Below are positions 20,834 to 37,295 of a DNA stretch of 64,000 nt, piece after piece. A program made the translations under genes and the position numbers. Source of the stretch: Chlamydiota bacterium (GTDB lineage: Bacteria; Chlamydiota; Chlamydiia; Chlamydiales; Parachlamydiaceae); assembly GCA_013287815.1 (NCBI GenBank), contig JABDDC010000006.1:959-64958 (forward strand), written 5' to 3'. The notes beneath the pieces are model-generated. The model saw nothing but the letters and a program-made list of their open reading frames with translations, did not search any database and was not told the origin of the DNA. Every line of letters starts with the position of its first letter. The first letter of the stretch is position 1.

Positions 20834-21916
20834 ATGAGTATTGAAGAACTAAATTCGATTAGAACCAAGATAGATGCGGTTGATTCTCAAATTGAAGAGT
20901 TAATTTGTCAACGTGGAGAACTTGCGAAAGAGGTTGGGAGAATCAAGCATAAAAGTGCCGAAAAAGAAATCAATTTTTATCGACCTGAACGTGAAGCTCA
21001 GGTCATGCGAAAAGTCTGTGAAAAAAATAAGGGACCGATAGATGACAAGCATATGATGACAATTTTTCGGGCGATAATGACCGCTTGCCTTGATTTGGAA
21101 CAACATTTGAAGGTTGCTTATTTGGGTCCTGAAGGAACATTCACTCAAGTAGCCGCTTACCAACATTTTGGAAGAGACATTAACGTCATTCCATTTTCAT
21201 CTACAAAAAGGGTGCTCCACGAAACCGAAATGAAGAGCGCTAATTTTGCAGTGTTACCAATTGAAAATTCGATTGTTGGAATGATGAATACAACATTGGA
21301 TGCTTTGCTTAATACAAATCTTAAAATTTGCGGGGAAGTCATTTTGCCTATCCATTATCATCTTTTGGGAGCCAATGAAGGGGGGATTGATTCAATCAAG
21401 AAAGTTTATGGGCATGAGCTGGCCTTTCAACAATGTAATCAATGGTTGGCCCAACATCTTCCACAGGCGAACAAAATTTCTCTTGAAAGCACATCTATGG
21501 CTGCAAAATTAGCTTTAGATGAACCTGATGCTTCAGCCCTCGGCGGCGATCTAACAGCAGAAACTTATTCATTAAAAATTCTTGCCAGTCAGATTGAAGG
21601 AAGTGCGCATAACGAAACCAGATTTATCGTGTTAGGTCAACAAAGTGTAGGGCCTTCCGGTAAAGATAAAACCTCATTATTGATATCGGCCCCTTATCAA
21701 CCTAGGTTTTTGGCCGAATTATTTAACTATTTTTCTGAAAAGAATGTTAATATCTGTCAATTCACATCGAGGCCTTATCATGAAAAAAAAGGCTATTATT
21801 GGTTTTATATTGATATTGAGGGACATCAAAATGAGAAGCCCATTGCAGATGTTTTAGAATTATTGGCAAATAAAACTATTCCCATAAATGTATTGGGTTC
21901 ATATCCTCGTTTATAG
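20834..21916 (+). CDS. pheA: Bifunctional chorismate mutase / prephenate dehydratase (P-protein)
   Basis: CM_2-type N-terminus (LNSIRTKIDAVDSQIEELICQRGELAKEVGRIK). PDT domain (VAYLGPEGTFTQ, ETRFIVLG). C-terminal ACT-like region. Confidence 0.9.
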   Translation: MSIEELNSIRTKIDAVDSQIEELICQRGELAKEVGRIKHKSAEKEINFYRPEREAQVMRKVCEKNKGPIDDKHMMTIFRAIMTACLDLEQHLKVAYLGPEGTFTQVAAYQHFGRDINVIPFSSTKRVLHETEMKSANFAVLPIENSIVGMMNTTLDALLNTNLKICGEVILPIHYHLLGANEGGIDSIKKVYGHELAFQQCNQWLAQHLPQANKISLESTSMAAKLALDEPDASALGGDLTAETYSLKILASQIEGSAHNETRFIVLGQQSVGPSGKDKTSLLISAPYQPRFLAELFNYFSEKNVNICQFTSRPYHEKKGYYWFYIDIEGHQNEKPIADVLELLANKTIPINVLGSYPRL

Positions 21917-21991
21917 GCACAATATTAATAACAGAGACAGAGGTGTAATCTGAACAACTTATTCACTATCCTATTTTATTTTTTCTTCAAC

Positions 21992-23161
21992 TTGAAAGAA
22001 CGTCTCTATCACGTTCATTCAAATACGGAAAAGACGTTGATCTCTCAAACGAATTTATTTCCTTCCAATGAAGAAATCATTAAATCCATTTTGGGATCCA
22101 TCCGTCTTGTCAAATATCACCCCTCCCGACTCATTCTTAAAGAAGGGGAAACCGGAGGAGATGCGATTTATATGGTCCAGAATGGTTCTGTACGCGTCTT
22201 TACTTATGACAGCAATGGAATAAAGATCCCCTTAGCCCGACTTGAGAGCGGGGACTATTTTGGCGAGCAAACTCTTTTAAGTGATTTACATAAAACGCGC
22301 TCTGCCAACGTTGAATCCATTACACCAGTCACTTTAATCCGCATTGATGCAAAAAGCTTCATAACCCTTTTAAGAGATGATCCTGAATTTCGGAAAAAGA
22401 TTGGCATACTAGGAGACGCGCAAGCATTTAGTCGCCTTCTTGCGATGAGCGAATATGAAAAAAGTCCATGGCTCTCTGCTATAATCAAGAAGGATAAGAA
22501 GCATAACTCGAATATTCAAAGCTATTCCATTAAATTGTCTCACGATAAATTTGATTCTTTTTACACTGGCCAATATGTAATGATCAGGGCTAAAATGGGT
22601 GAATATTGGCTGGAGAGACCTTATACCGTTTCTGACTTGCCGGTTGAGAATGAATTGAGAATTACTATTAAGTACAATCCTGAAAGTATCTTTACAGAGT
22701 GGCTGTTTCATCGAGCACCCGACGAATTAAATATCTTTGTGACTCAGCCTAGAGGGTCTTTCATATTAAACCTGAATAGTGATTCAAATATTTTATGTTT
22801 TGCCGGCGGAATAGGGATTACTCCGTTTATTACCTTTGCAAAGGCATTTGCCTTTCAAAACAGAAAAAGTGATAAGATGCATATCCTTTATTCTGCGTTG
22901 AATGAACTAGATTTTATTTTCAAGGATGAATTCAGCTCTATTGCACAAAGTACACCATCATTTTCTGTCAGGTATCGGGCCACGGACAAGGAAGGACTGC
23001 TTTCAGAAAAGGAAATTATTAAGGTTGTAGATTCCTTTAACCGCCCGGATATTTACATCTGCGGCCCGGAAGGTTTTATTAAATTGGTTCAGGATGCACT
23101 GCTATCAATCCGTTATGATGCAAAAAAAATTAAGATCGACCAATATGTTCATGCAGGTTAA
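21992..23161 (+). CDS. cNMP-binding domain fused to an FNR-like FAD/NAD(P)-binding oxidoreductase
   Basis: The N-terminus has a CAP/cNMP fold pattern (GDAIYMVQNGSVRV...GDYFGEQTLL...RSANV). The C-terminus has RPYTVSD (RxYS/T FAD motif), FAGGIGITP (NAD motif) and DIYICGPEGF. The start is a TTG in the ORF track and is uncertain. Confidence 0.75.
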   Translation: MKERLYHVHSNTEKTLISQTNLFPSNEEIIKSILGSIRLVKYHPSRLILKEGETGGDAIYMVQNGSVRVFTYDSNGIKIPLARLESGDYFGEQTLLSDLHKTRSANVESITPVTLIRIDAKSFITLLRDDPEFRKKIGILGDAQAFSRLLAMSEYEKSPWLSAIIKKDKKHNSNIQSYSIKLSHDKFDSFYTGQYVMIRAKMGEYWLERPYTVSDLPVENELRITIKYNPESIFTEWLFHRAPDELNIFVTQPRGSFILNLNSDSNILCFAGGIGITPFITFAKAFAFQNRKSDKMHILYSALNELDFIFKDEFSSIAQSTPSFSVRYRATDKEGLLSEKEIIKVVDSFNRPDIYICGPEGFIKLVQDALLSIRYDAKKIKIDQYVHAG

Positions 23162-23167
23162 CCATTA

Positions 23168-24157
23168 ATGGAAAAGAGAAAATTAGGACAGTTAGAAGTT
23201 TCTGCCTTGGGATTTGGCTGTATGGCACTTTCTGAATTTTACGGCGAACCTCTCGATCAAAAGAGCGCCATTCAGATCATTCACTGCGCCCTTGAATCGG
23301 GCATCACCCTGCTCGACACTGCAGATATGTATGGCTTTGGCGATAATGAGCTTTTAGTGGGGAAAGCTATCGAAGGACGCCGCAATCAAGTTGTGGTAGC
23401 TACTAAAACAGGGATCGTCCGAAAGAAAGAGGATCCTTCTTTTAGGGAATTCTGCGGGAAACCCGAGTATATCAAAAAGCAATGCGAAGGAAGCTTACTG
23501 CGCCTAGGCATCGAGACGATCGACCTTTACTACCTTCATCGGCTCGATCCCTCGACCCCCATCGAAGAATCAGTTGGAGCAATGAAAGATCTGGTCAAAG
23601 AGGGTAAAGTGAGATATATCGGCCTGTCGGAGGTAGAAGCAGAACAGATTGAACGAGCTCAAAAGATTCACCCGATCACAGCCCTCGAGACCGAATACTC
23701 TTTATGGAGTCGCGATCCGGAGGCCGAGGTCTTCGACCTCTGCAAAAGACTGAATATCGGTTTTGTTGCTCATAGTCCTATTGGAAGGGGTTTCCTAGGC
23801 GGCCAGATCAAATCATTCGACCAACTGCCCGAAGATGATTTTAGGAGAACGATCCCTCGCTTTATGGGGGAAAACTTCGACTTTAACCTCAAGATTGTCG
23901 ATATGATCGATCAGATGGCCAAGAAGAAAGGCTGCACAAACGTTCAATTGGTCCTTGCTTGGATACTGGCGCATCCGCTTGGAATCGTCCCCCTATTTGG
24001 AACTAAAGAGTCAAAACATATTCCGGAGAATGCGAGGAGCACCGATGTCAAGCTCACGGCTGACGAGTTTTACATTTTGAATCAGATGATACCGCCCGGC
24101 TTGGCCAAAGGTGTCCGCTACCCTGCCGTCTCCAAAAAACATTATGAGAAGCCATAA
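23168..24157 (+). CDS. Aldo/keto reductase
   Basis: LGFGCMALS, LLDTADMYG, KTG, LYYLHRLD and IGLSE motifs of the AKR11/13-type family. The start is 6 nt after the upstream stop. Confidence 0.9.
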   Translation: MEKRKLGQLEVSALGFGCMALSEFYGEPLDQKSAIQIIHCALESGITLLDTADMYGFGDNELLVGKAIEGRRNQVVVATKTGIVRKKEDPSFREFCGKPEYIKKQCEGSLLRLGIETIDLYYLHRLDPSTPIEESVGAMKDLVKEGKVRYIGLSEVEAEQIERAQKIHPITALETEYSLWSRDPEAEVFDLCKRLNIGFVAHSPIGRGFLGGQIKSFDQLPEDDFRRTIPRFMGENFDFNLKIVDMIDQMAKKKGCTNVQLVLAWILAHPLGIVPLFGTKESKHIPENARSTDVKLTADEFYILNQMIPPGLAKGVRYPAVSKKHYEKP

Positions 24158-24160
24158 TTG

Positions 24161-25846
24161 TTAACCTAATGCCATTGGTGTTTTACTCCTGGCGGCTTTA
24201 ATGGTCTCGCCAAGCTGCTGTAACATAGGTCCGCAGTCTAAGCGGTCGAGATGTATTTCAATGAAAGAGAGCTCCTGGCTTGCTTCGGCCCGAGTTAAGG
24301 CTTCTTCCAGGTCGCTTTCCTGCTTTACTTCACAGCTCCAGAAATTATCACCAAACACAGCTGGCAATTGATGATATTTCCAGGGTTGCAAATCATTGTA
24401 AATGGCCTCTCTGATCACTCTTTCAGTGGTGTAGCCATCATTATTGAGCAAAAATATAATGGGTTTACAGTTGTATCGCATGATTGTCGATAACTCTTGC
24501 GCCGTTTCTTGAAATGCGCCATCTCCAACAAGTAGAATAGTGCGACGATTGGGTGCAGCAGTGCAGACACCTAGCAGGGCGGGAGTTCCATACCCGATTG
24601 ACATATAGTCGGCTTGTCCAATATAAAGTACATCAGGCGGTAATTGCATTTGTGAACAACAAAATATAGCGCAGCCTGTATCCACAACGACAATATCATC
24701 CGGACGTAAAAAATGAGCTAATTTTTTGAAAAAAAACTGAGTGGTCATAGGGACCTGACGCCCCTTATCCATTTTTTGTCCGGGGGTATACTCAAAATGT
24801 TTTTTTATCGTTTTCTTACTTTGATTTTTTGTTTCTCCGAATTTTTTAGACAAGTTTTTTATAAAATCATTTATATGGACGGGAGTGTGTTTGTGGTGTT
24901 GAATCAACACTTGATCGGTTTTAGCTTCTATCATGATGTCATGTGAAAGTGCAGCAGTAAAACCGCCCATATCCGTTTCATTTAAATTAGATCCCATTAG
25001 TAAAACGGCATCCGCTTCTTCAACAATTTTGCATATCGCAGGATCTCCCCATTTCCCCTGATAAATTCCCATGTATTGTGGGTGCTGTTCCGAGATAATG
25101 CCTTTGGCAGAAAATAAAGAAGCACAAAGAAATCCGCTATTTTCTACAAGATCTTTATAGTCTTCCTTCAGGAGGTAGCTCATCAAATAGGGACCTCCAA
25201 TAATGACAGGATTTTTGGCTTTTGTTAACAACTGATAAGCCTTCTCAACTGCTTGTACGAGTGTCTCCCTGTGACTATTAGCAGGCGATAATTCAAATGG
25301 CCCCGGAGCTTCGCATGTGTGATAAATGATATCGGTAGGCAAAGATATATACACCGGTCTTTTATGGTAAAGGCAAGCTTGCAATGCTTGATCGATTTGT
25401 TTTGGCGCTTGTTGAGGGTCACTGATGAATTGGCAGTCGACCGTGATTTCTTCATACATCTTCATGGCCGCTAAATAATCGGTTTCAATGGAGTGATGAA
25501 TGTGTTTCGGTTTATGATGGTATTTTAAAGCCGGACTTCCTCCAATGACTACCACCGGAACATGTTCACAATAGGCGCCTGCAATGGCATTGATGGCACT
25601 AAATTCCCCTACGGAAAATGCCAAGCCAACAGCACTTAAACCATTGACTCTAGCATAGCCGTCTGCTGCATATCCTGCATTGAGTTCATTGCAGCAGCAA
25701 ATTAATTCTAAATCATTTTCCAGAGCGCAATCGAGAAAATTGAATAAATAGTCACCGGCAACGATGAACATTTGATTGACACCAAGCTGTTTCAACCGTG
25801 TAACCAAATAACTTCCAACAGTAAATTTTGAATCTGACTTTGTCAT
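24161..25846 (-). CDS. ThDP-dependent 2-keto-acid decarboxylase (indolepyruvate/phenylpyruvate/pyruvate decarboxylase family)
   Basis: The N-terminal TVGSYLVTRLKQLGVNQMFIVAGDYLFNFLD is PDC/IpdC-like. The ThDP motif is GDGAFQETAQELSTIMRYNCKPIIFLLNNDGYTTER. Confidence 0.85.
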   Translation of the reverse strand: MTKSDSKFTVGSYLVTRLKQLGVNQMFIVAGDYLFNFLDCALENDLELICCCNELNAGYAADGYARVNGLSAVGLAFSVGEFSAINAIAGAYCEHVPVVVIGGSPALKYHHKPKHIHHSIETDYLAAMKMYEEITVDCQFISDPQQAPKQIDQALQACLYHKRPVYISLPTDIIYHTCEAPGPFELSPANSHRETLVQAVEKAYQLLTKAKNPVIIGGPYLMSYLLKEDYKDLVENSGFLCASLFSAKGIISEQHPQYMGIYQGKWGDPAICKIVEEADAVLLMGSNLNETDMGGFTAALSHDIMIEAKTDQVLIQHHKHTPVHINDFIKNLSKKFGETKNQSKKTIKKHFEYTPGQKMDKGRQVPMTTQFFFKKLAHFLRPDDIVVVDTGCAIFCCSQMQLPPDVLYIGQADYMSIGYGTPALLGVCTAAPNRRTILLVGDGAFQETAQELSTIMRYNCKPIIFLLNNDGYTTERVIREAIYNDLQPWKYHQLPAVFGDNFWSCEVKQESDLEEALTRAEASQELSFIEIHLDRLDCGPMLQQLGETIKAARSKTPMALG

Positions 25847-25853
25847 AAAATTT

Positions 25854-26537
25854 CTATAACTTCCTCATTCCGGCAATGCCAACGCGTCGTGAAGGGTAGG
25901 TATAATAGATAACGCGAAGTCCGCGTTCCCCAAAACCTCCAACAACAGCCTGCCAACCATCATGTTCTTTTCCTTCTTCCTTGCACCGGGTATAGGTCCA
26001 TAGTTTGGGATTCTCCTGTGTACCACTTCTATAGTAGATATTCCCCGTAGAGATATACTCTAACTGGATGGCTATGGATGCAGTTAAAATATCAGGAACC
26101 TCATATCCTTTTTCCAGCACGAGGGGTTTTTGTTCAGAGTAGATCTTAAATCGGCTTTCGGGAATCACATCTTTTGTCAACAACGCCCAATAGGAGGCTT
26201 TAACCCGGATTTCTTTAAACTCTTGGGGAATCAGGTCTGCAATGTACTCATATTTGGTTAGGCGACCTGTTTGACGTTTCGCCAAAATCTCTTCCCATTT
26301 TTCGATGGAAAGGGGGACTTTCATTGGAGGATCGCCTACTTCAACAGTTGCGGGAACAAAAACAAGCCAGTCGGTCTCGTGCACTTTCTTATCCGGCCAG
26401 AATGGGCTGGGCTTCATGAATTCTTCAATCCAGTTTTCAGGAAGAGGAATCTCGTCAACTTGACCGATAAAGGCATTCCATTTTTCAGGACCAATGACAG
26501 ATTGATACAATTTATCTTTTTCGTTTAAATTAGCCAT
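25854..26537 (-). CDS. Hypothetical protein (no recognisable family) embedded in the P450 operon
   Basis: Clean 227 aa ORF. There is a 7 nt gap to the decarboxylase start and 24 nt from the upstream gene. No signal peptide or TM. No motif recognised. Confidence 0.6.
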   Translation of the reverse strand: MANLNEKDKLYQSVIGPEKWNAFIGQVDEIPLPENWIEEFMKPSPFWPDKKVHETDWLVFVPATVEVGDPPMKVPLSIEKWEEILAKRQTGRLTKYEYIADLIPQEFKEIRVKASYWALLTKDVIPESRFKIYSEQKPLVLEKGYEVPDILTASIAIQLEYISTGNIYYRSGTQENPKLWTYTRCKEEGKEHDGWQAVVGGFGERGLRVIYYTYPSRRVGIAGMRKL

Positions 26538-26561
26538 ACTTTTTTCCTTAATTTAAAAAAT

Positions 26562-27956
26562 TTATCGATGTTTGGCTATAAAACCTAGTACTATGCTATT
26601 AAAAAATTCAGGTTGTTCCCAATAGAGTGCATGTCCTCCCTCGGCGAGGATTGCTATCTCGCAATTGGGGATATGGCTAGCGTACGCCCTTAACATTGGC
26701 GGAGGCATGTAAAGGTCTGCATCCCCTCCAATCATCATCACGGGTGTTTTCACATGGGCGAGCTTCTCCCAAGTGACCTCATGTGCGTTTGCATTCACTT
26801 GGCCAATTCGAACGCCGGTAGCCGCTTTCTCCTCGAGAGCCGACCACATCTCTACCCCTTTTGGATTACTGACACGATAAGTGGGCGAAAGTTCGCGGAA
26901 CTCGGCTGGAAACTCGTTAAAGCCATTGGGACAAAGACGAATACACAACTTGATGTAATCGGGATCCTTAACTTCTCCAATTGGGCAGTAGGATGAGCTG
27001 ACAACGCTATAGAGATCTGCTCCATAAGAAAGGGCGTAATTCATGGCAAGACCCCCACCTGCTGCAGCTCCAACGAGATGACATTTGGTAATGCCCAGGA
27101 ATTTAAGCAGATTGCGCAAATCATTGACTGCGCTTCCCGGATTTTCCTTAGAAACCGGATCGGACTTACCATAGCCGCGTCTCGAATAAGTGATGACTCG
27201 ATAGCCGGACTTGGCAAAGACAGGTTGTTGATAACCCCAAACGGTCGAGCTTCTTTCCGGATGCAGCAATACGACAGGTTCACCTTTGCCGCCGGTATCT
27301 GAATATTCAAGTTGGGTGTCAGGAAGCTTGGCAATGCCTTGTTTTGCCGGAAACGGAGCTGGTATATGTACTGGACTTGCGGGGTTGAAAAGATGATCGG
27401 CAGCAAACACTCCACTTGCTATTTCATCTATCGGCTCCAAGACAAAATCAAAATGTCCAATCGGATATTGAATGACTCGCCCAGGTCTATACCAATGGTC
27501 TTCAGCATTGTGTTCATCGTCAGGAAAGTATAGCTGAGTCGTTATTAATTTATAACCATCCGCACTGATTTTGAAATGGAGATGGGCACAACGAATATCA
27601 AGTGGATCGTCGTTAATTTCATATCCGCCAGGAATTATTGTTTCCAATTTATAGAAACCATCACTATCTGATCTTAATTTTCCTCGTAATGTATAGCCTT
27701 CGGTGTCATAAACACCATCAGTAGTGGTCTGCCAAATGTCTAAAGTGGCCCCACCCAGTGGAGTGCCATCCGTAGAAAGAACCCGTCCAGATAAGGTCAG
27801 AGATCGATCTTCAGGAAGCTTGGGTGATGAAAAAACACCTGTTATTTCCGGTGCTCCCGCATAATAAAAAGGACCTTCAATATCTGACTCGGTTGGTTCT
27901 AGTCGTTGTCCACCGGTGATTGGTACAAATTTATTGTAAGCTTTATATATTTGCAT
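26562..27956 (-). CDS. Fusion of an intradiol ring-cleavage dioxygenase domain with an alpha/beta-hydrolase fold lacking the nucleophile
   Basis: The N-terminal half has LSGRVLSTDGTPLGGATLDIWQTTTDGVYD...YTLRG...CAHLHFKI (Dioxygenase_C pattern with Y,Y,HxH). The C-terminal half has VVLLHP...RVITYSRRGYGKSD...HLVGAAAGGGLAMNYA...GGDAD...GGHALYWEQPEFF. The GxSxG motif reads GAAAG. Confidence 0.75.
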   Translation of the reverse strand: MQIYKAYNKFVPITGGQRLEPTESDIEGPFYYAGAPEITGVFSSPKLPEDRSLTLSGRVLSTDGTPLGGATLDIWQTTTDGVYDTEGYTLRGKLRSDSDGFYKLETIIPGGYEINDDPLDIRCAHLHFKISADGYKLITTQLYFPDDEHNAEDHWYRPGRVIQYPIGHFDFVLEPIDEIASGVFAADHLFNPASPVHIPAPFPAKQGIAKLPDTQLEYSDTGGKGEPVVLLHPERSSTVWGYQQPVFAKSGYRVITYSRRGYGKSDPVSKENPGSAVNDLRNLLKFLGITKCHLVGAAAGGGLAMNYALSYGADLYSVVSSSYCPIGEVKDPDYIKLCIRLCPNGFNEFPAEFRELSPTYRVSNPKGVEMWSALEEKAATGVRIGQVNANAHEVTWEKLAHVKTPVMMIGGDADLYMPPPMLRAYASHIPNCEIAILAEGGHALYWEQPEFFNSIVLGFIAKHR

Positions 27957-27988
27957 AAGAATCCTTCAAAAAAATATTGTTTTTCATC

Positions 27989-29350
27989 TTAAGACATAGA
28001 TGTTTTCTGCTTTAATTTCAAATTATTAATGCTGGGCCTTATTGTGACGGCTGTGGACATCACGGGCTTCACTTCCTGATTAGGCAAAAATTCAAATGAG
28101 AATCGGCGCAGGATGATCACGAGTGCGGTGAGGATCTCTAGGAACGCGAAATTGCGCCCAATGCATCCCCTTTTGCCGCTGCCAAAGGGAAGGTAAGCGT
28201 AAGGATGGCTTTGTCCGAATGGATTATCCAAAAATCGCTGTGGGTTAAAAGTATTAGGCTCCTTCCAAAAATCAGGGTGGTGGTGAATTTGGTGGTTGTT
28301 AATAATTACACCTGCTCCCTTAGGAATAAAATATCCTTTCACGGAAGTATCAACAACAGCCTGTCTTAGCTGATTGAAGCTTGTAGAATTCATGCGCATC
28401 GATTCTTTAATCGTCGCTATAGTGTAGGTTAATTTATTAATTTGTTCATACGTCGGCTGTTCATCACCGAGCACATCCGAAATTTCCCGGCAGATTTTTT
28501 GCCTAATTTCGGGATGGCGTGTCAGTGCAATCAATACATAGAAAAGTGCCGGTGATGTTGTAAATAATCCAACCCCTGAAGCTGTGGAAATTTGAAATCC
28601 TATTTGATCAATGAGTTCTTCCCTGCTTAGTTCATTGCCATATTCATTGATAGCATTTCCAATAAAATCATCAATCTTATCACCTGATTCAAGCCGTCTT
28701 CTTACCCATTTTTTATAGGCTTCACGATTAGAGCCGATGGCCTCATCATACTGTTTTTTTTTCCAAGGCAATTTCCAAATCCAAGGGAAGTATGTGGTAT
28801 GATGCGCCATGAGGGTCCCAACAGAATGATACATCATGTCAACGGTCTCTTCGGGACTGTCTTCTATATAGTAGAAGAATGAATTGTTAACAAAGTTAAT
28901 GATAAGGCAAGTCAATTCATAGCCAACATCAACAACTGCGTTGTCGGGATATTTATCGAACCAGGCATCGACCCGTTTAGTAGCTATTTCATAAAATTTA
29001 GCCATATACCGTTCAAAAAAAACATGCACATTTACCGATTTTAAAGCCACTTCCCGATCCCTTTTCCACTTAACCGGATCGTTTTGCGTAAAAAAACTTA
29101 CTAAACCTGCCAGCGGCTCCAAGCCATGAACTAAGGCTGGATGTTTATTGAAGAAGTCGTCTTGCTTATCTCCCAGGATGATTTGGGCGTAATCCGGATG
29201 CGTAAAAAAATAGTTTGTAATCTTTCCTGTATCGAACTTGGCTATATCGCCGTATGTTTCAAAAATATGGGTTCTCAGACCGACCGGATCATCTCTATTC
29301 CATCTGAAGTACTTCCATTTTGACATTTTGATATCGGGAACATTTAACAT
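27989..29350 (-). CDS. Cytochrome P450
   Basis: Heme-thiolate loop PFGSGKRGCIGRNFAFLE, ExxR (KESMR) and an I-helix-like ASGVGLFTTSPAL. It appears soluble (no N-terminal anchor). Confidence 0.9.
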   Translation of the reverse strand: MLNVPDIKMSKWKYFRWNRDDPVGLRTHIFETYGDIAKFDTGKITNYFFTHPDYAQIILGDKQDDFFNKHPALVHGLEPLAGLVSFFTQNDPVKWKRDREVALKSVNVHVFFERYMAKFYEIATKRVDAWFDKYPDNAVVDVGYELTCLIINFVNNSFFYYIEDSPEETVDMMYHSVGTLMAHHTTYFPWIWKLPWKKKQYDEAIGSNREAYKKWVRRRLESGDKIDDFIGNAINEYGNELSREELIDQIGFQISTASGVGLFTTSPALFYVLIALTRHPEIRQKICREISDVLGDEQPTYEQINKLTYTIATIKESMRMNSTSFNQLRQAVVDTSVKGYFIPKGAGVIINNHQIHHHPDFWKEPNTFNPQRFLDNPFGQSHPYAYLPFGSGKRGCIGRNFAFLEILTALVIILRRFSFEFLPNQEVKPVMSTAVTIRPSINNLKLKQKTSMS

Positions 29351-29353
29351 AGA

Positions 29354-31396
29354 TTATTCCTTTACTTGTTCAGGGCCACCAACATTACTGAATTCTTCAA
29401 CGTATATTTTTTCCTGTGGAATCTTCAGATTTTCAATTAAGGTGTTTTTTATATTTCTCGTGTAGCTATCGGGGCCGCAAATATAAATATCTGCGTTTGC
29501 CATTAATTCTATCTGTCTGGAAATTTCATCTGAAGTTAATCTCCCCTCTTTAACGGTTTGTCGATACCTTACTTTAAAATTAGGATATTTTTCACTCATT
29601 TTTTCAAACTCAATTCTGAAAATATCCTCTCCGGCATTCCTGAAGGAATAGTCAATTGTCACTGAAATGGAAGGTTCATTTCTAATCATTTTTGCCATCA
29701 TGATAGCCGGAGTAATTCCAATTCCACCGGCATAAAAGATCACGGGAGTTTGGAAGGGATATTTAATCAAAAATTCTCCTTGAGGCTTGGACACGTAAGC
29801 TATCATATTCTCGGATGCATTTTCAAATAACCAGTTGGATAGGGCTCCTTTTTCTTCACGTTTTATAGTTATTTCATAAAAGTCATCCTCAGGATGACTT
29901 GTCAATGTGTAGGGCCTCTCCACCCAATTTCCATTAATTTGAAATCTGATAACCACATGTTGTCCCGGAAGAAAGGTTTTTTTATCTTCCGCATTGATCG
30001 GTTTAAGTTGAAAAGACCAGATGATATTATTATGTTTAATGATTTTGAAGATATTGCAAGATTTCCAAACATCATAGCCAAGCAATTCCTGTATTCTTGG
30101 TCTACAGCCTCCGCATACAGACCCCGCTCCTGTGCATTTCATCACTTGTTTGAGAGAGTTTGCTCCGGATTTAATAGTGTCTACAATCGTTTGAGTGCTA
30201 ATAAGCATGCATTTGCACAGTATATCTTCACCAACACTGATCAACTTGAAAGACTTGGTAGCCAATGAACCGCTAACAATAAATCTTTCGAGGATTTCAG
30301 GAGTCATTTTGGTTTTCTCGATGATCATTTGGACCAAATCGCTGTTGTCATCCCAATACCCGAAATTGACGACTCCTACCAATTCCCCATCCTTAACTCT
30401 AATCTCCCTTTTTTCTTGTTCGTTTCTCTGATAAACAAAGGTCTCATAGTCTTCTATTCCAAGCCGTGAGATGCAAAATATCCCATTACCTGTCACCTGA
30501 TAACCGATCAATTTCATCTCTTTTGAAACATCCATCTTTAAACAGATGGCGGGGAGCCCTAAAAATACTCCTTGATAACGTTTAACTCGACCAACATGTG
30601 GGGTCTTATAAACATTTTCGAGAGAGACTAGCACCTCTTTGAATCGGTCACTTGAACCGTACATTTTCAACAAGGTCTCTTTATCTAAAACAATGAGTTC
30701 AGAATTACCACGTGATACTGCCATTGCTATGCGTGGCAGTTTTTTTATAATTCCCAATTCACCAAATATCTCACCCGGCTCCAGGGTCACATTTAAAATA
30801 ATTTCCCCTCTTTCATTTTCAGTTCGGATATCCACTTCTCCGGACAAGATAATATAAGCGGCATCCGATTTGTCATTTTGATAAAAGATTACCTCTCTAT
30901 CTTTAAATTTCTCAACTCTTTCATCAATTTTGGCGACATCTATATTGCTTTCTTGAAGATACTGAAAATTCTCTTCTAACTGGTGAAATACAGACTCAAC
31001 TCCACGCTCCCTCGTTACCTTCAATATCGTTTCATTGAATTGACTTTCCGCTTTTAATACTTCTTTTGGGATCATTAAACATGTGCAATCTTCAGTAGCG
31101 CAAGCAGAAGAATGTCTGGCAGTTAAACCCAAACTTGTGGCGGCTTCCTCTCCAAAAAACTCCTTCTCCTTTCTAATGACTTGAACCTGCTCATCACCTG
31201 CCGAATTAATCGTAAATAGTTTAACTTTCCCCTTTTCAATGATATAAACGGAATCGGCCGCCTCTCCAACAGAGTAGATGGTTTGCCCATTGCAAAACTT
31301 TTTTTCTTGAGACTTTTCAAAAATCTCACCCGAAAAAGGGATGTTGAATATATTCAGAAGGCCAGAATCTCTGACCAATTTTTTTTGGATGTCCAC
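29354..31396 (-). CDS. Multidomain reductase: 2x cNMP-binding, an unknown domain, a BFD-like [2Fe-2S] domain and an FNR-like FAD/NAD(P) domain
   Basis: The two CAP-type domains read GEAADSVYIIEKGKVKL...FFGEEA...RHSSACA and SDAAYIILSGEVDI...IFGELGII...PRIAMAV. The Cys pattern CKC...CTGAGSVCGGC fits Fer2_BFD. The FNR part has RPYTLTS, YAGGIGITP and DIYICGPDSY. The stop is 3 nt before the P450 start. Confidence 0.8.
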   Translation of the reverse strand: MDIQKKLVRDSGLLNIFNIPFSGEIFEKSQEKKFCNGQTIYSVGEAADSVYIIEKGKVKLFTINSAGDEQVQVIRKEKEFFGEEAATSLGLTARHSSACATEDCTCLMIPKEVLKAESQFNETILKVTRERGVESVFHQLEENFQYLQESNIDVAKIDERVEKFKDREVIFYQNDKSDAAYIILSGEVDIRTENERGEIILNVTLEPGEIFGELGIIKKLPRIAMAVSRGNSELIVLDKETLLKMYGSSDRFKEVLVSLENVYKTPHVGRVKRYQGVFLGLPAICLKMDVSKEMKLIGYQVTGNGIFCISRLGIEDYETFVYQRNEQEKREIRVKDGELVGVVNFGYWDDNSDLVQMIIEKTKMTPEILERFIVSGSLATKSFKLISVGEDILCKCMLISTQTIVDTIKSGANSLKQVMKCTGAGSVCGGCRPRIQELLGYDVWKSCNIFKIIKHNNIIWSFQLKPINAEDKKTFLPGQHVVIRFQINGNWVERPYTLTSHPEDDFYEITIKREEKGALSNWLFENASENMIAYVSKPQGEFLIKYPFQTPVIFYAGGIGITPAIMMAKMIRNEPSISVTIDYSFRNAGEDIFRIEFEKMSEKYPNFKVRYRQTVKEGRLTSDEISRQIELMANADIYICGPDSYTRNIKNTLIENLKIPQEKIYVEEFSNVGGPEQVKE

Positions 31397-31535
31397 CTTA
31401 GCTTGTCCTTATTCTTGATAAATACTTTCTAACAACAAATGATTTTTATTGCATGAGATTTTTTTCTTTAGTACGGTCAGGGTGCAAGTAAAAGTGATGA
31501 TTTTATAAATATTCATTCCGAAAAGGAGAAAAGTC

Positions 31536-33017
31536 ATGGGAGCTAGAAACGGAAAAGCATATCTGGATTCTCTCGATAATATGCAAAGAGAGATATGGTT
31601 AGATGGAGAAAAGCTGACTCAGAATTTGAGTCAATATCCCTTATTTTCGGGTATCGCCAAGTCGATGGCCCAGCTGTATGATATGCAGCATGATCCTCTC
31701 TTGATAGATCAGATGACCTACAACTCACCTACCACCGGCGATCGCGTTGGGATGAGTTTTCTCGAACCTAAAACAATGGAGGATGTAGCTAAAAGACGGA
31801 TCATGATGAAAAATTGGGCCGATTGGTCAGGAGGCATGCTTGGAAGAACTCCCGATTATAAAAATAGTGAATTGATGGCTTGGGCTTCAGCTGCTGAAGT
31901 ATTTGGCAGAAAAGATCCACGCTTTGCTGAAAACATAAAGAGATATTATGAATACGTTCGAGAGAATGATCTTCTTTTAACCCATGCTCTCCTTGCGCCT
32001 CAAGTTAATCGTTCAGCATTGGCGCACGAGCAAAAAGATCAGTTCATCGCAGCAAAAGTCGTTGAAAAGAATACAAAAGGAATAGTCATTCGCGGAGCCC
32101 GATATCTGGCTACCTTCCCTTTAGCTGATGAAATTATTGTTTTTCCCCCTCCTCCTTTACTCGAACAAGTGAATTTTTCTGTAAAAGATATAAAAACTGC
32201 TGCTTTAGAAGCTCCTTATATGTTTGCTTTTTCAATATCCGTTGAAACACCCGGCCTCAAATTTATCTGCCGAGAGTCTTTTTCCAAAAAATCCATTTTC
32301 GACCATCCCCTGGCGGCCCGTTTTGATGAACAAGATGCTGTAGTCGTTTTCGATGATGTACTTGTTCCATGGGATAGAGTCTTTTTGCTGGAAGATATCG
32401 AAGGGCGCCATGCTATGTATGCCGAAACTGATGCCAGAATCCATATGACCCACCAAGTTCTTATTAGAAGGGTTGCTAAAACAGAATTCCTCTTGGGCGT
32501 TATCTGTAAAGTCGCCGAAATGATCGGAATCGATCAATTCCCCAATGTACATGAAAAGATTATTAAAGTGATCATGGCACTAGATACTATGAAGGCCTTA
32601 TTGGTCGCCAGTGAAGCTAATGCTAAAGTTAACCGCTGGGGTGTAATGACGCCCGATGATGAGCCATTAGCTACTTCCAGAAGTCTTTATCCACTGCTTT
32701 ACCCTCAAATTCGTGAGATCATTCAGCAACTTAGTGCCGGCGGCTTGATGGCTCTTCCAACAGAGTTGTCGATGGATAGTGCCATCAGAGAAGATATTGA
32801 CAAGTACTATCAAGGCAAAAATGCCAATTCAGAAGAGCGGATCAAACTTTTTCATCTTTGCTGGGATATTGCAGGAAGCTCTTTTGGGTCTAGACAAGAA
32901 CTTTATGAACGATTTTTCTCAGGTGATCCACTAAAGACTGCAACAGCATTTTATTATCATTATGATAAGGCGCCGGTGATAAAAAAAGTTGAAGAATTTC
33001 TCAATAGGAAAATATAA
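31536..33017 (+). CDS. hpaB: 4-hydroxyphenylacetate 3-monooxygenase oxygenase component family (HpaB-like, FADH2-dependent)
   Basis: The N-terminal GARNGKAYLDSLDNMQREIWLDGEKL, the length (493 aa) and blocks such as LLTHALLAPQVNRS and GARYLATF are typical of the HpaB/4HPA3H family. aaaaggag lies upstream. Confidence 0.8.
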   Translation: MGARNGKAYLDSLDNMQREIWLDGEKLTQNLSQYPLFSGIAKSMAQLYDMQHDPLLIDQMTYNSPTTGDRVGMSFLEPKTMEDVAKRRIMMKNWADWSGGMLGRTPDYKNSELMAWASAAEVFGRKDPRFAENIKRYYEYVRENDLLLTHALLAPQVNRSALAHEQKDQFIAAKVVEKNTKGIVIRGARYLATFPLADEIIVFPPPPLLEQVNFSVKDIKTAALEAPYMFAFSISVETPGLKFICRESFSKKSIFDHPLAARFDEQDAVVVFDDVLVPWDRVFLLEDIEGRHAMYAETDARIHMTHQVLIRRVAKTEFLLGVICKVAEMIGIDQFPNVHEKIIKVIMALDTMKALLVASEANAKVNRWGVMTPDDEPLATSRSLYPLLYPQIREIIQQLSAGGLMALPTELSMDSAIREDIDKYYQGKNANSEERIKLFHLCWDIAGSSFGSRQELYERFFSGDPLKTATAFYYHYDKAPVIKKVEEFLNRKI

Positions 33018-36509: not shown

Positions 36510-37295
36510 CTAAACTTTAGCTTTCTCTTTTTTTTTGATCATTTCCATCACTTCTCTCATCTGTTCAAAAGTCAACTGTTGACTAGCATCTGTTTTAGCG
36601 ACATCAATGTTATCGTGAGTTTCAATCAAATACCCATCGAAATTATAGTTCAATGATTCATCAATAATTTTCATGACTTTGTGTCTTTCCCCACCTATAT
36701 GGGACGGATCAAGGAACATCGGAATTCCCATTTTTTCTTTCATTTCCATAGCCATTTCGAATTCAGGGATGTTGCGTAATTGCTTTGGATTTTCCCCATA
36801 CCCGGGTGTAAAACCTCTATGGCATGCCCATAGACGTTCTTTTGGAAAACCGACACTCATAATATGCTCATAGATTCCAAACCAATGCCTTTTATCCAGC
36901 CATATTTGATTTTTAAACATAAAAATGAGGTTTGGCGGACCGCTAGCTAAAATAGAAGCAATTCTTTTTTGTTCAAAATGATTTTGGTTTCTTGCTCCCA
37001 ACCAAACGACAGCGCCGGCATTTTTTATTCCGCAAATTTTTAATGCATCCACCATCATCTGCGCTTGAATAGCAGATAAAATTTCCGTACAAGGAATTAA
37101 TCCTCTATTTAAGGTCTCTTCAAAAAGCATGGGTATGCCATAAAATGCAAACCCTTCCCAACCGGGTGTTGTCCGGGGTTTCCATAAAGAAGCCCTTACA
37201 TATTTCAAGCCATCTTTTTTCAATTCCTCGGCACATGTGATAAGCTGCTCCCTTGATTCAAGGGCGCAGGGTCCCGCAATAATAGTTTTAGACAT
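36510..37295 (-). CDS. aroG: 3-deoxy-D-arabino-heptulosonate-7-phosphate synthase, class I-beta-like (unfused)
   Basis: IIAGPCALESREQ, LWKPRTTPGWEGF (KPRT motif), TEILS and DPSHIGGERHKV match the short DAHPS/KDO8PS I-beta fold. The shikimate context favours DAHPS over KDO8PS. Confidence 0.7.
   Translation of the reverse strand: MSKTIIAGPCALESREQLITCAEELKKDGLKYVRASLWKPRTTPGWEGFAFYGIPMLFEETLNRGLIPCTEILSAIQAQMMVDALKICGIKNAGAVVWLGARNQNHFEQKRIASILASGPPNLIFMFKNQIWLDKRHWFGIYEHIMSVGFPKERLWACHRGFTPGYGENPKQLRNIPEFEMAMEMKEKMGIPMFLDPSHIGGERHKVMKIIDESLNYNFDGYLIETHDNIDVAKTDASQQLTFEQMREVMEMIKKKEKAKV

What the first reader, a model, noticed from the sequence alone, without database searches (positions are those of the whole stretch)
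20834..33017. Compact aromatic tailoring gene cluster fed by PheA
Nine adjacent genes all act on aromatic or keto-acid chemistry.
- On the + strand: pheA (chorismate to phenylpyruvate), a cNMP-FNR reductase and an aldo-keto reductase.
- Convergent on the - strand is a tightly spaced five-gene operon with gaps of 3, 32, 24 and 7 nt: cNMP2-[2Fe-2S]-FNR reductase, P450, intradiol dioxygenase/alpha-beta fusion, an unknown 227 aa protein, and a ThDP keto-acid decarboxylase.
- Divergent from this operon is an HpaB-type flavin monooxygenase.

PheA, the decarboxylase and the AKR form an Ehrlich-type route (arylpyruvate to aldehyde to alcohol). P450, HpaB and the dioxygenase add hydroxylation and ring chemistry. 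This does not match the canonical hpa, paa or pca catabolic operons I know (no HpaC, HpaD/E, PaaABCDE or PcaGH pairs). It may make or remodel a specialised aromatic metabolite.
Basis: partly seen in the sequence, partly recalled or inferred. Interest (0 to 1): 0.8.

Follow-up and report, generated by a model that had tools for sequence, protein, structure and literature searches.

The report
Cyclic-nucleotide-gated P450 module in one-off operon
The nine genes are really there and five of them look like one operon, but across other genomes only the reductase and P450 travel together, so this is a one-off assembly around a portable, probably cyclic-nucleotide-controlled, electron-donor/P450 pair rather than a conserved aromatic pathway.

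Summary

The interpretation, one PheA-fed aromatic tailoring cluster, is only partly supported:
- In nine loci from at least five phyla, the only genes shared with this region are the 2xcNMP-[2Fe-2S]-FNR reductase and the P450 directly downstream of it.
- PheA, the decarboxylase, the 227-aa protein and HpaB were found in no related locus.
- The dioxygenase/alpha-beta fusion was not seen in any other sequence examined.
- pheA lies among scattered housekeeping aro genes (aroDE, aroC, aroK, aroB).

The reductase is the type known from Sorangium nitric oxide synthase. In relatives it is fused or adjacent to NOS, P450, multihaem cytochromes c, desaturases, a halogenase or nitrite reductase.

Some family labels are looser than they look:
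- The alpha/beta domain has Ala at the nucleophile position.
- HpaB lacks the 4-HPA carboxylate-binding Ser-Thr.
- The decarboxylase has an enlarged pocket.
- The 227-aa protein belongs to an orphan, F-box-associated family with no structural match.

A hydroxylation, catechol, intradiol-cleavage route is chemically coherent but untested. I rate it a new variant of known kinds, of moderate interest.

The parts
29354..31396 (-). Reductase, 680 aa: two cyclic-nucleotide-binding domains, a NirB-like linker, a BFD-type [2Fe-2S] domain and an FNR-type FAD/NAD(P)H module. It is the first gene of the operon (GTG start).
   Evidence: Pfam and NCBIfam. In a 23-sequence family alignment the four cluster cysteines C393, C395, C427 and C430 are invariant. 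Both phosphate-binding cassettes are conserved: G81/E82 are invariant and R93 is kept in at least 90% of sequences; F210/G211 are invariant and E212 and R221 are kept in at least 90%. The FNR motifs R493-x-Y495-T496 and G557-I-G-x-T-P are invariant. The same module forms the N-terminus of a Polyangium NOS.
27989..29350 (-). Cytochrome P450, 453 aa, 3 nt after the reductase.
   Evidence: PF00067 at 236 bits. The haem-thiolate loop FGSGKRGCIG and the ESMR motif are present. The nearest solved structures are the P450 BM3 haem domain and CYP3A, at about 120 bits. Only two close homologues exist (53% and 47% identity), and each directly follows a homologous reductase.
26562..27956 (-). Fusion protein, 464 aa. 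Residues about 19-175 are a small intradiol ring-cleavage dioxygenase. Residues about 190-464 are an alpha/beta-hydrolase-fold domain with Ala at the nucleophile position.
   Evidence: The best PDB matches are the small dioxygenases 9yh9, 4ilt and 4ilv. The iron-ligand motifs WQ..DGvY, PGGY and H-L-H are present. The nucleophile-elbow motif is HLVGAAAGG: Ala occupies the nucleophile position in 64 of 71 family members, while Asp (69/71) and His (70/71) are kept. The fusion was not found among the 150 best of 1.84 billion representatives or in 80 metagenome loci.
25854..26537 (-). 227-aa protein of an orphan family (conserved TYTRC-E, W-L-T-D-V and GGF motifs).
   Evidence: No Pfam or NCBIfam match. 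It has 16 homologues besides its own sequence, several fused to F-box-like PF12937. The AlphaFold model has pLDDT 90 and pTM 0.89 but no PDB or BFVD match at E <= 0.001; the only weak resemblance is C-type-lectin-like. Homologues stand alone in unrelated contexts.
24161..25846 (-). ThDP-dependent 2-keto-acid decarboxylase of the PDC/IPDC/KdcA family, 561 aa. It is the last gene of the operon.
   Evidence: Three TPP domains. TIGR03393 scores 391 bits, below its cut-off of 946. It is about equally close to bacterial PDC, KdcA and IPDC structures. The catalytic residues D27, E50, H113, H114 and E473 are conserved, and the pocket residues W392, Y290, I472 and W551 of Zymomonas PDC are replaced by I, T, T and L.
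31397..31535 (.). 139-nt divergent intergenic region between the reductase operon and hpaB. It is presumed to carry the promoters.
   Evidence: Sequence read. There is a strong Shine-Dalgarno (AAGGAG) before hpaB. The consensus promoter scan is at chance level.
31536..33017 (+). HpaB-family two-component flavin-dependent phenol 3-hydroxylase (oxygenase component), 493 aa.
   Evidence: TIGR02309 at 579 bits, above its cut-off of 480. It scores 443 bits to Thermus thermophilus HpaB, PDB 2yyg. R100, Y104 and H142 are conserved. The carboxylate-binding S197/T198 are replaced by Pro-Pro, with a 12-residue insertion.
21992..23161 (+). cNMP-binding domain + FNR-type reductase without an Fe-S domain, 389 aa (or 374 aa from a downstream start). 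It is a candidate flavin reductase for HpaB.
   Evidence: The FNR half is 34% identical over 232 residues to the FNR half of the 680-aa reductase, so the two are paralogues. It gives weak matches to the Fre/LuxG flavin reductases. The partner assignment is inference only.
23168..24157 (+). Aldo-keto reductase, 329 aa, 6 nt after the cNMP-FNR gene and convergent with the decarboxylase (3-nt gap).
   Evidence: PF00248 at 245 bits. No NCBIfam equivalog cut-off is reached. Its GC3 of 0.52 is higher than its neighbours' 0.31-0.38.
20834..21916 (+). Bifunctional chorismate mutase/prephenate dehydratase (P-protein) with an ACT domain, 360 aa. Probably housekeeping.
   Evidence: NF008865 at 232 bits (cut-off 219) and TIGR01807 at 86 bits (cut-off 69.6). 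Other aro genes lie at 6180-7637, 36510-37295, 39879-40976, 40969-41532 and 42791-43930.

Best explanation
**What it is**

The region is a genome-specific assembly built around a portable two-gene redox module. The module is a cyclic-nucleotide-binding, [2Fe-2S]- and FAD-containing NAD(P)H reductase of the Sorangium-NOS type, together with the P450 that it reduces.

- Shown: this pair is the only part conserved elsewhere.
- Shown: the reductase family serves many different acceptor enzymes.
- Inferred from spacing: in this genome the pair heads a five-gene operon. The other three genes are a small intradiol dioxygenase fused to a nucleophile-less alpha/beta-fold domain, an orphan 227-aa protein, and a large-pocket 2-keto-acid decarboxylase.
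- Flanking the operon: a divergent HpaB-type phenol hydroxylase and, convergent with the operon on the other side, pheA, a second cNMP-FNR reductase and an aldo-keto reductase.

**Most likely working model (inferred, not shown)**

1. An aryl compound, possibly formed from an arylpyruvate by the decarboxylase, is hydroxylated by the P450.
2. HpaB hydroxylates it again to give a catechol.
3. The intradiol dioxygenase opens the catechol ring, and the fused alpha/beta domain processes the product non-hydrolytically.
4. Electron supply to the P450 comes from the 680-aa reductase. Supply to HpaB may come from the 389-aa cNMP-FNR acting as a flavin reductase. Binding of cAMP or cGMP to the N-terminal domains would modulate both.

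pheA is most likely a housekeeping neighbour, not a dedicated feeder.
For: **Module**
- The P450's only close homologues (53% and 47% identity) each directly follow a homologous reductase (51% and 45% identity).
- A P450 lies directly downstream of the reductase in seven species-genome loci (Waddliaceae, Parachlamydiales, Coxiellaceae, Myxococcota, Acidobacteriota, Bryobacterales and one unclassified MAG) and in one JGI metagenome contig.
- It is fused into one 1305-1312-aa protein in four Burkholderiaceae/Alcaligenaceae MAG loci.
- An all-against-all comparison of nine such loci shares only these two genes.
- Identities of reductase and P450 fall in parallel across loci.

**Acceptor diversity of the reductase family**
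- 24 of 56 extended ORFs carry a NOS oxygenase domain.
- Others carry or adjoin a P450, multihaem cytochromes c, a fatty-acid desaturase or NIR_SIR. A Trp-halogenase fusion also exists.
- Cofactor and cNMP-binding motifs are invariant or nearly so.

**Operon**
- Gaps of 3-32 nt and a Shine-Dalgarno-like site before each gene.

**Chemistry**
- The dioxygenase iron ligands are present.
- The HpaB catalytic residues R100, Y104 and H142 are present.
- The decarboxylase catalytic residues are present, with an enlarged pocket.
- The 389-aa protein is a paralogue of the FNR half of the reductase.
Against: - No experimental or expression data exist. The P450 substrate is unknown, since its nearest structures are only about 120 bits away.
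- None of the non-module genes co-occurs with the module, or with each other, anywhere I could look. The pathway therefore rests on chemical plausibility and proximity alone.
- The 227-aa gene belongs to a family that is otherwise stand-alone and fused to F-box domains, which fits an effector or binding protein better than an enzyme.
- The alpha/beta domain lacks a nucleophile, so its role is unclear.
- HpaB and the 389-aa cNMP-FNR are about 8 kb apart and in different transcription units.
- Regulation by cNMP is inferred from conserved binding motifs only.
Confidence: 0.54

Rival explanations
1. All nine genes form one dedicated cluster that takes chorismate through PheA to phenylpyruvate. 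An Ehrlich-type decarboxylase/AKR route follows, and P450, HpaB and the dioxygenase then tailor the product into a specialised aromatic metabolite.
For: - The genes are physically adjacent and the family assignments are correct.
- The decarboxylase pocket fits substrates larger than pyruvate.
- HpaB lacks the residues that bind the carboxylate of 4-HPA, so a neutral phenol such as an aryl alcohol is conceivable.
- Other aromatic-pathway genes lie within the same 64 kb.
Against: - No co-localisation of any of these genes beyond reductase + P450 was found in 86 + 80 + 2 related loci.
- pheA is a standard feedback-type P-protein with an ACT domain, sitting among dispersed housekeeping aro genes.
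- The plus-strand and minus-strand units converge, so they are separate transcripts.
- The AKR has a different codon composition (GC3 0.52 against 0.31-0.38).
- An intradiol ring-cleaving enzyme is more typical of degradation than of tailoring.
Confidence: 0.2
2. Only the reductase and the P450 are functionally linked. The remaining genes are unrelated neighbours that happen to encode redox or aromatic-family enzymes in a compact genome, with some acquired separately.
For: - Only the pair is conserved.
- Both halves of the fusion, and the 227-aa family, occur elsewhere as stand-alone genes in unrelated contexts.
- P450, FNR, AKR and ThDP enzymes are generic families.
- Per-gene GC3 varies from 0.31 to 0.52 across the region.
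Against: - Intergenic gaps of 3-32 nt on one strand, with no terminator-like site between genes, make co-transcription likely, and co-transcribed genes are usually functionally related.
- A hydroxylase, hydroxylase, intradiol dioxygenase series is a coherent chemical sequence.
- Two paralogous cNMP-FNR reductases beside two oxygenases that each need a reductase is unlikely to be pure coincidence.
Confidence: 0.22
3. It is a variant of a known aromatic catabolic pathway: 4-hydroxyphenylacetate (hpa), beta-ketoadipate (cat/pca), or the hydroxyquinol route that pairs an HpaB-family monooxygenase with an intradiol dioxygenase.
For: - HpaB passes the TIGR02309 equivalog cut-off.
- The dioxygenase domain matches chlorocatechol, catechol and hydroxyquinol dioxygenases at 44-90 bits.
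- The alpha/beta domain weakly matches the PcaD enol-lactonase, at 63 bits.
- From my own knowledge, HpaB-family monooxygenases are paired with intradiol dioxygenases in the hydroxyquinol pathways (TftD/TftH, NpcA/NpcC).
Against: - No HpaC, HpaD/E, muconate cycloisomerase, maleylacetate reductase, PcaGH or PaaABCDE was found in the window.
- The dioxygenase is the roughly 175-aa small type and is far below every equivalog cut-off.
- The 'enol-lactonase-like' domain has Ala instead of the Ser nucleophile.
- HpaB lacks the 4-HPA carboxylate-binding residues.
Confidence: 0.04

Closest known systems
Reductase domain of Sorangium cellulosum nitric oxide synthase (scNOS; Agapie et al. 2009, as described in PMC3701330 and PMC4436077)
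   Same: It has the same module order: a BFD-type [2Fe-2S] domain followed by an FNR-type FAD/NAD(P)H domain, placed N-terminal to (or upstream of) a haem-thiolate oxygenase. A Polyangium NOS retrieved with the window's reductase has 2x cNMP + Fer2_BFD + FAD_binding_6 + NO_synthase and aligns to residues 6-668 of the window protein.
   Different: Here the module is a separate protein and its acceptor is a P450, not a fused NOS oxygenase domain. The papers I could read describe the scNOS reductase only as 2Fe-2S/FAD/NAD and do not mention the two cNMP-binding domains. I could not read the original paper.
Self-sufficient and class I bacterial P450 systems (P450 BM3/CYP102, P450 RhF/CYP116B, putidaredoxin-type three-component systems); comparison from my own knowledge of these systems
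   Same: An NAD(P)H-dependent flavin reductase plus an Fe-S carrier delivers electrons to a soluble P450. The redox partner is encoded next to the P450, and natural fusions exist in relatives (1305 aa).
   Different: - The Fe-S domain is BFD-type rather than plant-type or adrenodoxin-type.
- The reductase lies upstream of, or N-terminal to, the P450.
- It carries two cyclic-nucleotide-binding domains.
- I found no paper linking such domains to P450 redox partners.
Two-component 4-hydroxyphenylacetate 3-monooxygenase HpaBC (Thermus thermophilus type, PDB 2yyg)
   Same: HpaB scores 443 bits to TtHpaB, passes TIGR02309, and keeps R100, Y104 and H142.
   Different: - There is no HpaC-type flavin reductase in the window.
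- S197/T198 are replaced by Pro-Pro with a 12-residue loop insertion.
- No downstream hpa genes are present.
Small intradiol dioxygenases (PDB 4ilt/4ilv from Streptomyces sp. SirexAA-E, and 9yh9)
   Same: It is a catalytic core of about 150-175 residues without the N-terminal helical domain of CatA-type enzymes. The Tyr/Tyr/His/His motifs are conserved.
   Different: It is fused to an alpha/beta-fold domain whose whole family has Ala at the nucleophile position. That fusion was not found elsewhere.
Pyruvate, indolepyruvate and branched-chain keto-acid decarboxylases (ZmPDC, EcIPDC, KdcA)
   Same: The fold and the catalytic residues D27, E50, H113, H114 and E473 are the same.
   Different: It is below the equivalog cut-offs for IPDC and PPDC. 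Its pocket residues match none of the three exactly (I, T, T, L at ZmPDC positions 392, 290, 472, 551), so the substrate cannot be assigned.

Membership tests
Conserved biosynthetic or catabolic gene cluster (the nine genes as one unit) | Homologues of the member genes co-localise in other genomes | tested here: not met
   Only reductase + P450 co-occur. Loci anchored on the fusion protein and on the 227-aa protein carry no other member. I could not run neighbourhood searches anchored on HpaB, the decarboxylase, the AKR or PheA.
Conserved biosynthetic or catabolic gene cluster (the nine genes as one unit) | Co-transcription or co-regulation | not testable with these tools
   Only spacing (3-32 nt) and Shine-Dalgarno-like sites support a five-gene operon. 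Consensus promoter and terminator scans are at chance level.
scNOS-type reductase module | BFD-type [2Fe-2S] domain with four conserved cysteines | tested here: met
   PF04324 at 49 bits. C393, C395, C427 and C430 are invariant in 23 sequences.
scNOS-type reductase module | [quoted passage not shown] | tested here: met
   PF00970 and PF00175. The R-x-Y-T and G-I-G-x-T-P motifs are invariant.
scNOS-type reductase module | Homology over the full length to the reductase part of myxobacterial NOS, including the N-terminal region | tested here: met
   Polyangium loci L036, L040, L042 and L044 match query residues 6-668/672. L036 has 2x cNMP + BFD + FAD_binding_6 + NO_synthase.
scNOS-type reductase module | Covalent fusion to a NOS oxygenase domain | tested here: not met
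   The window protein ends after the FNR module. The next gene is a P450.
P450 with a dedicated redox partner | Haem-thiolate ligand loop FxxGxRxCxG and EXXR motif | tested here: met
   FGSGKRGCIG and ESMR are present. PF00067 scores 236 bits.
P450 with a dedicated redox partner | Conserved adjacency or fusion of P450 and reductase across lineages | tested here: met
P450 with a dedicated redox partner | Electron transfer from reductase to P450 | not testable with these tools
   This needs purified proteins.
Cyclic-nucleotide-regulated protein (CAP/PKA-type cNMP domain) | Phosphate-binding cassette with conserved Gly-Glu and Arg | tested here: met
   G81/E82 are invariant and R93 is kept in at least 90% of sequences. 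F210/G211 are invariant, and E212 and R221 are kept in at least 90%. PF00027 scores 128 bits over two domains.
Cyclic-nucleotide-regulated protein (CAP/PKA-type cNMP domain) | Ligand binding and an allosteric effect on activity | not testable with these tools
   Inference only. As supporting context, a class II cAMP phosphodiesterase gene follows the P450 in L004.
hpa operon (4-hydroxyphenylacetate catabolism) | HpaB oxygenase component | tested here: met
   TIGR02309 at 579 bits, above its cut-off of 480.
hpa operon (4-hydroxyphenylacetate catabolism) | HpaC flavin reductase and the HpaD/E/F/G/H/I meta-cleavage genes nearby | tested here: not met
   None was found among the 43 window ORFs scanned.
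hpa operon (4-hydroxyphenylacetate catabolism) | Residues binding the substrate carboxylate (TtHpaB S197/T198; residue roles recalled from the TtHpaB structure paper) | tested here: not met
   They are replaced by Pro-Pro, with a 12-residue insertion.
beta-ketoadipate pathway (cat/pca) | Intradiol dioxygenase with Tyr, Tyr, His, His iron ligands | tested here: met
   The motifs are present. However, the scores are far below the equivalog cut-offs: 83-90 bits against 359-404.
beta-ketoadipate pathway (cat/pca) | Enol-lactonase (PcaD) with a Ser nucleophile | tested here: not met
   TIGR02427 scores 63 bits against a cut-off of 256. The nucleophile position is Ala in the window protein and in 64 of 71 family members.
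beta-ketoadipate pathway (cat/pca) | Muconate cycloisomerase, muconolactone isomerase or PcaGH partners | tested here: not met
   Absent from the window.
Indolepyruvate/phenylpyruvate decarboxylase (Ehrlich-type) | ThDP fold and catalytic Asp/Glu/His-His/Glu | tested here: met
Indolepyruvate/phenylpyruvate decarboxylase (Ehrlich-type) | Equivalog-level similarity or a specificity-pocket match to IPDC or PPDC | tested here: inconclusive
   TIGR03393 scores 391 against a cut-off of 946, and TIGR03394 scores 242 against 554. The pocket is enlarged relative to ZmPDC, but it is not identical to IPDC or KdcA.

The most novel reading that the evidence does not exclude
The 2x cNMP-[2Fe-2S]-FNR protein may be a second-messenger-gated, general-purpose electron donor. 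On this reading, binding of cAMP or cGMP switches NAD(P)H-to-acceptor electron flow on or off. Evolution has plugged this switch into P450s (adjacent or fused), NOS, desaturases, multihaem cytochromes c, a halogenase and nitrite reductase. In this window, two paralogous gated reductases would each control one oxygenase (P450 and HpaB). A whole aromatic hydroxylation and ring-cleavage route would then be switchable after translation by a cyclic nucleotide, possibly one of host origin if the organism is an intracellular bacterium.
Probability: 0.3. Interest if true: 0.75.

Novelty: new variant of a known kind. Interest (0 to 1): 0.5.

Why it matters
- If the cNMP domains really gate electron flow, this family would be a new class of P450 (and NOS) redox partner with built-in second-messenger control. 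It would include natural 1305-aa fusions as a new type of self-sufficient P450.
- That would be of interest for P450 enzymology, for biocatalysis (a switchable redox partner) and for understanding what regulates bacterial NOS, whose physiological inputs are described as unknown (PMC4436077).
- For the aromatic 'cluster' itself, the value is more modest. It is a candidate lineage-specific pathway in an uncultured, probably host-associated bacterium, with several non-canonical enzymes: a nucleophile-less alpha/beta domain fused to a small dioxygenase, an HpaB with an altered substrate loop, and an orphan-fold protein. Each could be tested cheaply in vitro.

Tried and rejected
1. **Known RNA elements and tRNAs.** None in the window.
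2. **Mobile-element boundaries or repeats around the cluster.** Only chance-level short repeats, plus the paralogous FNR motif. Base composition gives no clear island signal.
3. **Naming the organism.** The window's genome is not among the GTDB species representatives, and its proteins are unnamed singletons. There are only indirect hints of Chlamydiota:
   - The best homologues of the P450, the reductase, the cNMP-M50 protein and a response regulator are in Waddliaceae and Parachlamydiales MAGs.
   - There is an aroDE fusion, an LRR protein, and the F-box-associated family.
4. **Fusion partners elsewhere.** The '2-stretch' hits to the fusion protein turned out to be tandem alpha/beta-alpha/beta proteins, not dioxygenase fusions. 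L144 and L116, which seemed to reach into the dioxygenase half, did not hold up; L144 encodes a stand-alone hydrolase with a hydrophobic N-terminal extension.
5. **The 227-aa family as a target of a diversity-generating retroelement.** One homologue (L168) sits beside a reverse transcriptase and a bAvd gene, and the model's only weak fold matches are C-type-lectin-like. However, the only repeat there is a 79-nt, 100% identical duplication upstream of the gene, not a variable/template repeat pair at its 3' end. I dropped the idea.
6. **Literature.** I found no paper connecting cNMP-binding domains with scNOS-type reductases or P450 redox partners. The original scNOS paper is not held.
7. **Promoter and terminator scans.** Uninformative.

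Full report
**1. Observation**

The ORF list reproduces every coordinate in the finding. Pfam and NCBIfam confirm the domain calls:

| Coordinates | Strand | Content |
|---|---|---|
| 20834-21916 | + | Chorismate mutase + prephenate dehydratase + ACT (above the NF008865 and TIGR01807 cut-offs) |
| 21992-23161 | + | cNMP-binding + FNR |
| 23168-24157 | + | Aldo-keto reductase |
| 24161-25846 | - | ThDP decarboxylase |
| 25854-26537 | - | 227 aa, no family |
| 26562-27956 | - | Intradiol Dioxygenase_C + alpha/beta fold |
| 27989-29350 | - | P450 |
| 29354-31396 | - | 2x cNMP + BFD [2Fe-2S] + FNR |
| 31536-33017 | + | HpaB (TIGR02309, 579 bits against a cut-off of 480) |

The gaps of 3, 32, 24 and 7 nt are right, and each minus-strand gene has an AAGGA/GAGGA-type ribosome-binding site. 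An independent Logan assembly has the same order. Consensus promoter and terminator scans are at chance level.

**2. What is conserved**

The P450 has only two close relatives among 5.8 billion clustered proteins, at 53% and 47% identity. In both, the gene directly upstream is a homologue of the 680-aa reductase, and none of the other cluster genes is nearby.

The reductase architecture is rare, with about 40 clusters. An alignment-based scan of one genome per species still found 294 relatives across many phyla. The window's own genome is not among those representatives.

- tblastn of 13 window proteins against the 86 loci then held found PheA, the decarboxylase, the 227-aa protein, HpaB and the adjacent binding protein only in the window's own copy. 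The P450 was found in 20 loci.
- An all-against-all comparison of every ORF in nine reductase-P450 loci gave only two shared gene families, the reductase and the P450. The loci were the window, a JGI contig, and MAGs from Waddliaceae, Parachlamydiales, Coxiellaceae, Myxococcota, Acidobacteriota, Bryobacterales and one unclassified bacterium.
- Identities of the two proteins fall in parallel from locus to locus, as expected if they move as a unit.

**3. What the reductase is**

In the 80 species-genome loci, the reductase ORF often continues into another domain. Of 56 C-terminal extensions, 24 are NOS oxygenase domains, 4 are P450s, 3 are multihaem cytochromes c and 1 is a nitrite/sulfite reductase.

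Of the 34 separate downstream genes scanned, 8 are P450s, about 9 are multihaem cytochromes c and 2 are fatty-acid desaturases. A Trp-halogenase fusion also exists (P0162).

A Polyangium NOS has exactly 2x cNMP + BFD + FNR + NOS oxygenase and aligns with the window protein from residue 6. This is the architecture of the Sorangium cellulosum NOS. The papers I could read describe its N-terminal reductase as containing a 2Fe-2S cluster, FAD and NAD sites (PMC3701330, PMC4436077).

The cluster cysteines, the FNR motifs and both cNMP phosphate-binding cassettes are invariant or nearly so. I found no paper that links cNMP-binding domains to this reductase or to P450 redox partners. The original scNOS paper was not available. 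In one relative (L004), a class II cAMP phosphodiesterase gene follows the P450.

**4. The other genes, one by one**

*Decarboxylase.* It is about equally similar to bacterial PDC, KdcA and IPDC structures. Against Zymomonas PDC, D27, E50, H113, H114 and E473 are conserved. W392, Y290, I472 and W551 become I, T, T and L. From my knowledge of these enzymes, that means a larger pocket than a pyruvate-specific enzyme. The actual substrate cannot be read off.

*Fusion protein.*
- The N-terminal 175 residues resemble the small intradiol dioxygenases 9yh9, 4ilt and 4ilv, and keep the Tyr/Tyr/His/His motifs.
- The C-terminal half belongs to a populous family of stand-alone proteins of 280-320 aa, found mostly in soil metagenomes at 40-62% identity.
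- In that family the canonical nucleophile is Ala in 64 of 71 members, while Asp and His are kept. It is therefore unlikely to be a serine hydrolase. From memory, tomato methylketone synthase 1 is a precedent for an Ala-His alpha/beta-fold decarboxylase.
- No other dioxygenase + alpha/beta fusion appeared among the 150 best of 1.84 billion representatives or in 80 metagenome loci. Those loci also carry no other cluster gene.

*227-aa protein.* It has 16 homologues besides its own sequence, several with N-terminal F-box-like domains. Two homologues whose context I looked at are isolated genes near AbiE and IS605 elements, reverse transcriptase and conjugation genes. The model is confident (pLDDT 90, pTM 0.89) but has no significant structural neighbour.

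*HpaB.* It keeps R100, Y104 and H142 of the Thermus enzyme. The Ser197-Thr198 pair that binds the carboxylate of 4-HPA (roles recalled from the structure paper) is replaced by Pro-Pro with a 12-residue insertion.

*389-aa cNMP-FNR.* It is a paralogue of the FNR half of the large reductase, at 34% identity over 232 residues, and lacks the Fe-S domain. It gives weak matches to Fre/LuxG flavin reductases. This makes it a candidate for the flavin reductase that HpaB needs, which is otherwise missing from the window. That assignment is inference only.

**5. Context**

The window also holds these aromatic-pathway genes:
- an aroDE fusion at 6180-7637;
- a DAHP-synthase-like gene at 36510-37295;
- aroC at 39879-40976 and aroK at 40969-41532;
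- an inserted AAA_14/DUF4143 gene, followed by aroB at 42791-43930.

They are interspersed with RND efflux pumps, two-component systems and transporters. pheA is therefore one of six dispersed aromatic amino-acid genes and is most simply housekeeping.

A third protein with two cNMP domains, fused to an M50-like peptidase, lies at 48863-50932. Its 43%-identical homologue sits between the two reductase-P450 pairs of the Waddliaceae contig.

**6. Explanation**

Shown:
- A conserved, portable reductase-P450 pair.
- A reductase family that donates electrons to many acceptor types.
- Intact catalytic motifs in the P450, the dioxygenase, HpaB and the decarboxylase.
- Non-canonical features in the alpha/beta domain and in HpaB.

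Inferred:
- A five-gene operon.
- An oxidative route of decarboxylation, P450 hydroxylation, HpaB ortho-hydroxylation to a catechol, intradiol cleavage and processing by the fused domain.
- Cyclic-nucleotide control of electron supply.
- The 389-aa protein as HpaB's reductase.

The data do not tell whether the route is degradative, detoxifying or biosynthetic. A ring-cleaving enzyme leans towards degradation or remodelling.

**7. Comparison and novelty**

The region is not a member of the hpa, cat/pca, paa or hydroxyquinol operons, because defining partners are absent and key residues differ. The reductase is a member of the scNOS-type module in everything except the fused acceptor. As a P450 partner with cNMP domains, I found no description of it.

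The nine-gene 'cluster' is an uncharacterised, apparently unique arrangement of known enzyme families. I class it as a new variant of a known kind.

**8. Verdict**

- Observation: confirmed.
- Interpretation: partly supported.
- Interest: 0.5, driven mainly by the gated reductase family rather than by the proposed PheA-fed pathway.

Noticed in passing
window 48863-50932 (+); L002 13672-15666 (-): A third protein with two cNMP-binding domains, here fused to an M50-like/HExxH membrane peptidase. Its 43%-identical homologue in the Waddliaceae contig lies between that contig's two reductase-P450 pairs, so it may belong to the same cNMP-linked system.
   Followed up: partly
L002 15793-18487 (= L007 17830-20524): The Waddliaceae contig has a second pair in which the 'reductase' is only 441 aa (cNMP + BFD, no FNR half), followed by a P450 that is 52% identical to the window's. 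It may be a truncated or split partner that borrows an FNR in trans.
   Followed up: no
L004 11510-12511: A class II cAMP phosphodiesterase (PF02112) is encoded directly after the reductase-P450 pair in a JGI metagenome contig. This fits a cyclic-nucleotide link.
   Followed up: no
L024 9962-13876; also L018, L025, L026: MAGs labelled Burkholderiaceae or Alcaligenaceae encode 1305-1312-aa single polypeptides: 2x cNMP + BFD + FNR + P450. This would be an undescribed type of natural self-sufficient P450.
   Followed up: partly
L068 5930-11809; L014 4273-5367; L015 5917-7059; L027 7765-9132; P0162: The same reductase module turns up in several other settings:
- inside a 1960-aa molybdopterin + NIR_SIR protein (Methylocystis MAG);
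- next to fatty-acid desaturases (an uncultured Chlamydiae MAG and an unclassified MAG);
- next to multihaem cytochromes c;
- fused to a Trp-halogenase domain.
   Followed up: partly
window 26562-27956 (-), residues ~190-464, and about 70 stand-alone homologues (P0188 and others): A large alpha/beta-hydrolase-fold family, mostly from soil metagenomes, has Ala instead of the nucleophile Ser (motif HLVG[T/S/A]AAGG) but keeps the Asp and His. At least one homologue (L144) has a hydrophobic N-terminal extension. The function is unknown.
   Followed up: partly
window 25854-26537 (-); P0002-P0017: This is an orphan family of about 200-aa domains, often fused to F-box-like domains, which suggests effectors of host-associated bacteria. 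The structure prediction is confident but has no PDB or BFVD match.
   Followed up: yes
L168 3299-3377 and 5489-5567: A perfect 79-nt direct repeat brackets the 227-aa homologue and part of a reverse-transcriptase gene, next to a bAvd gene. It is not a DGR variable/template repeat pair. It may be a duplication or an assembly artefact.
   Followed up: partly
window 41613-42794 (+): An AAA_14/DUF4143 ATPase gene is inserted between aroK and aroB, inside what is otherwise an aroC-aroK-aroB run.
   Followed up: no
window 52190-54670 and 54793-57249 (+): Two tandem proteins of about 820 aa carry PPDK_N and PEP-utilizer domains (the rifampicin-phosphotransferase-like architecture). Similar genes flank the reductase-P450 pair in the Waddliaceae contig.
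   Followed up: no
window 3342-4829 (-), 4918-5886 (-), 51153-51536 (-): A vanadium-chloroperoxidase-like protein (DUF6851 + VCPO_2nd), an RNI-type leucine-rich-repeat protein and a small Fic-domain protein. All three are typical accessory or effector-like genes of host-associated bacteria.
   Followed up: no
window 33033-34289 (-) and 19699-20661 (-): Two genes flank the cluster: an orphan Peripla_BP_6 solute-binding protein with no adjacent ABC permease, and a PIG3-type quinone oxidoreductase. Either could relate to aromatic or quinone chemistry, but I did not test this.
   Followed up: no
window 21992-22036: The TTG start listed for the 389-aa cNMP-FNR has no ribosome-binding site. The gene call held for the Logan contig uses a start 15 codons downstream, giving 374 aa.
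   Followed up: no
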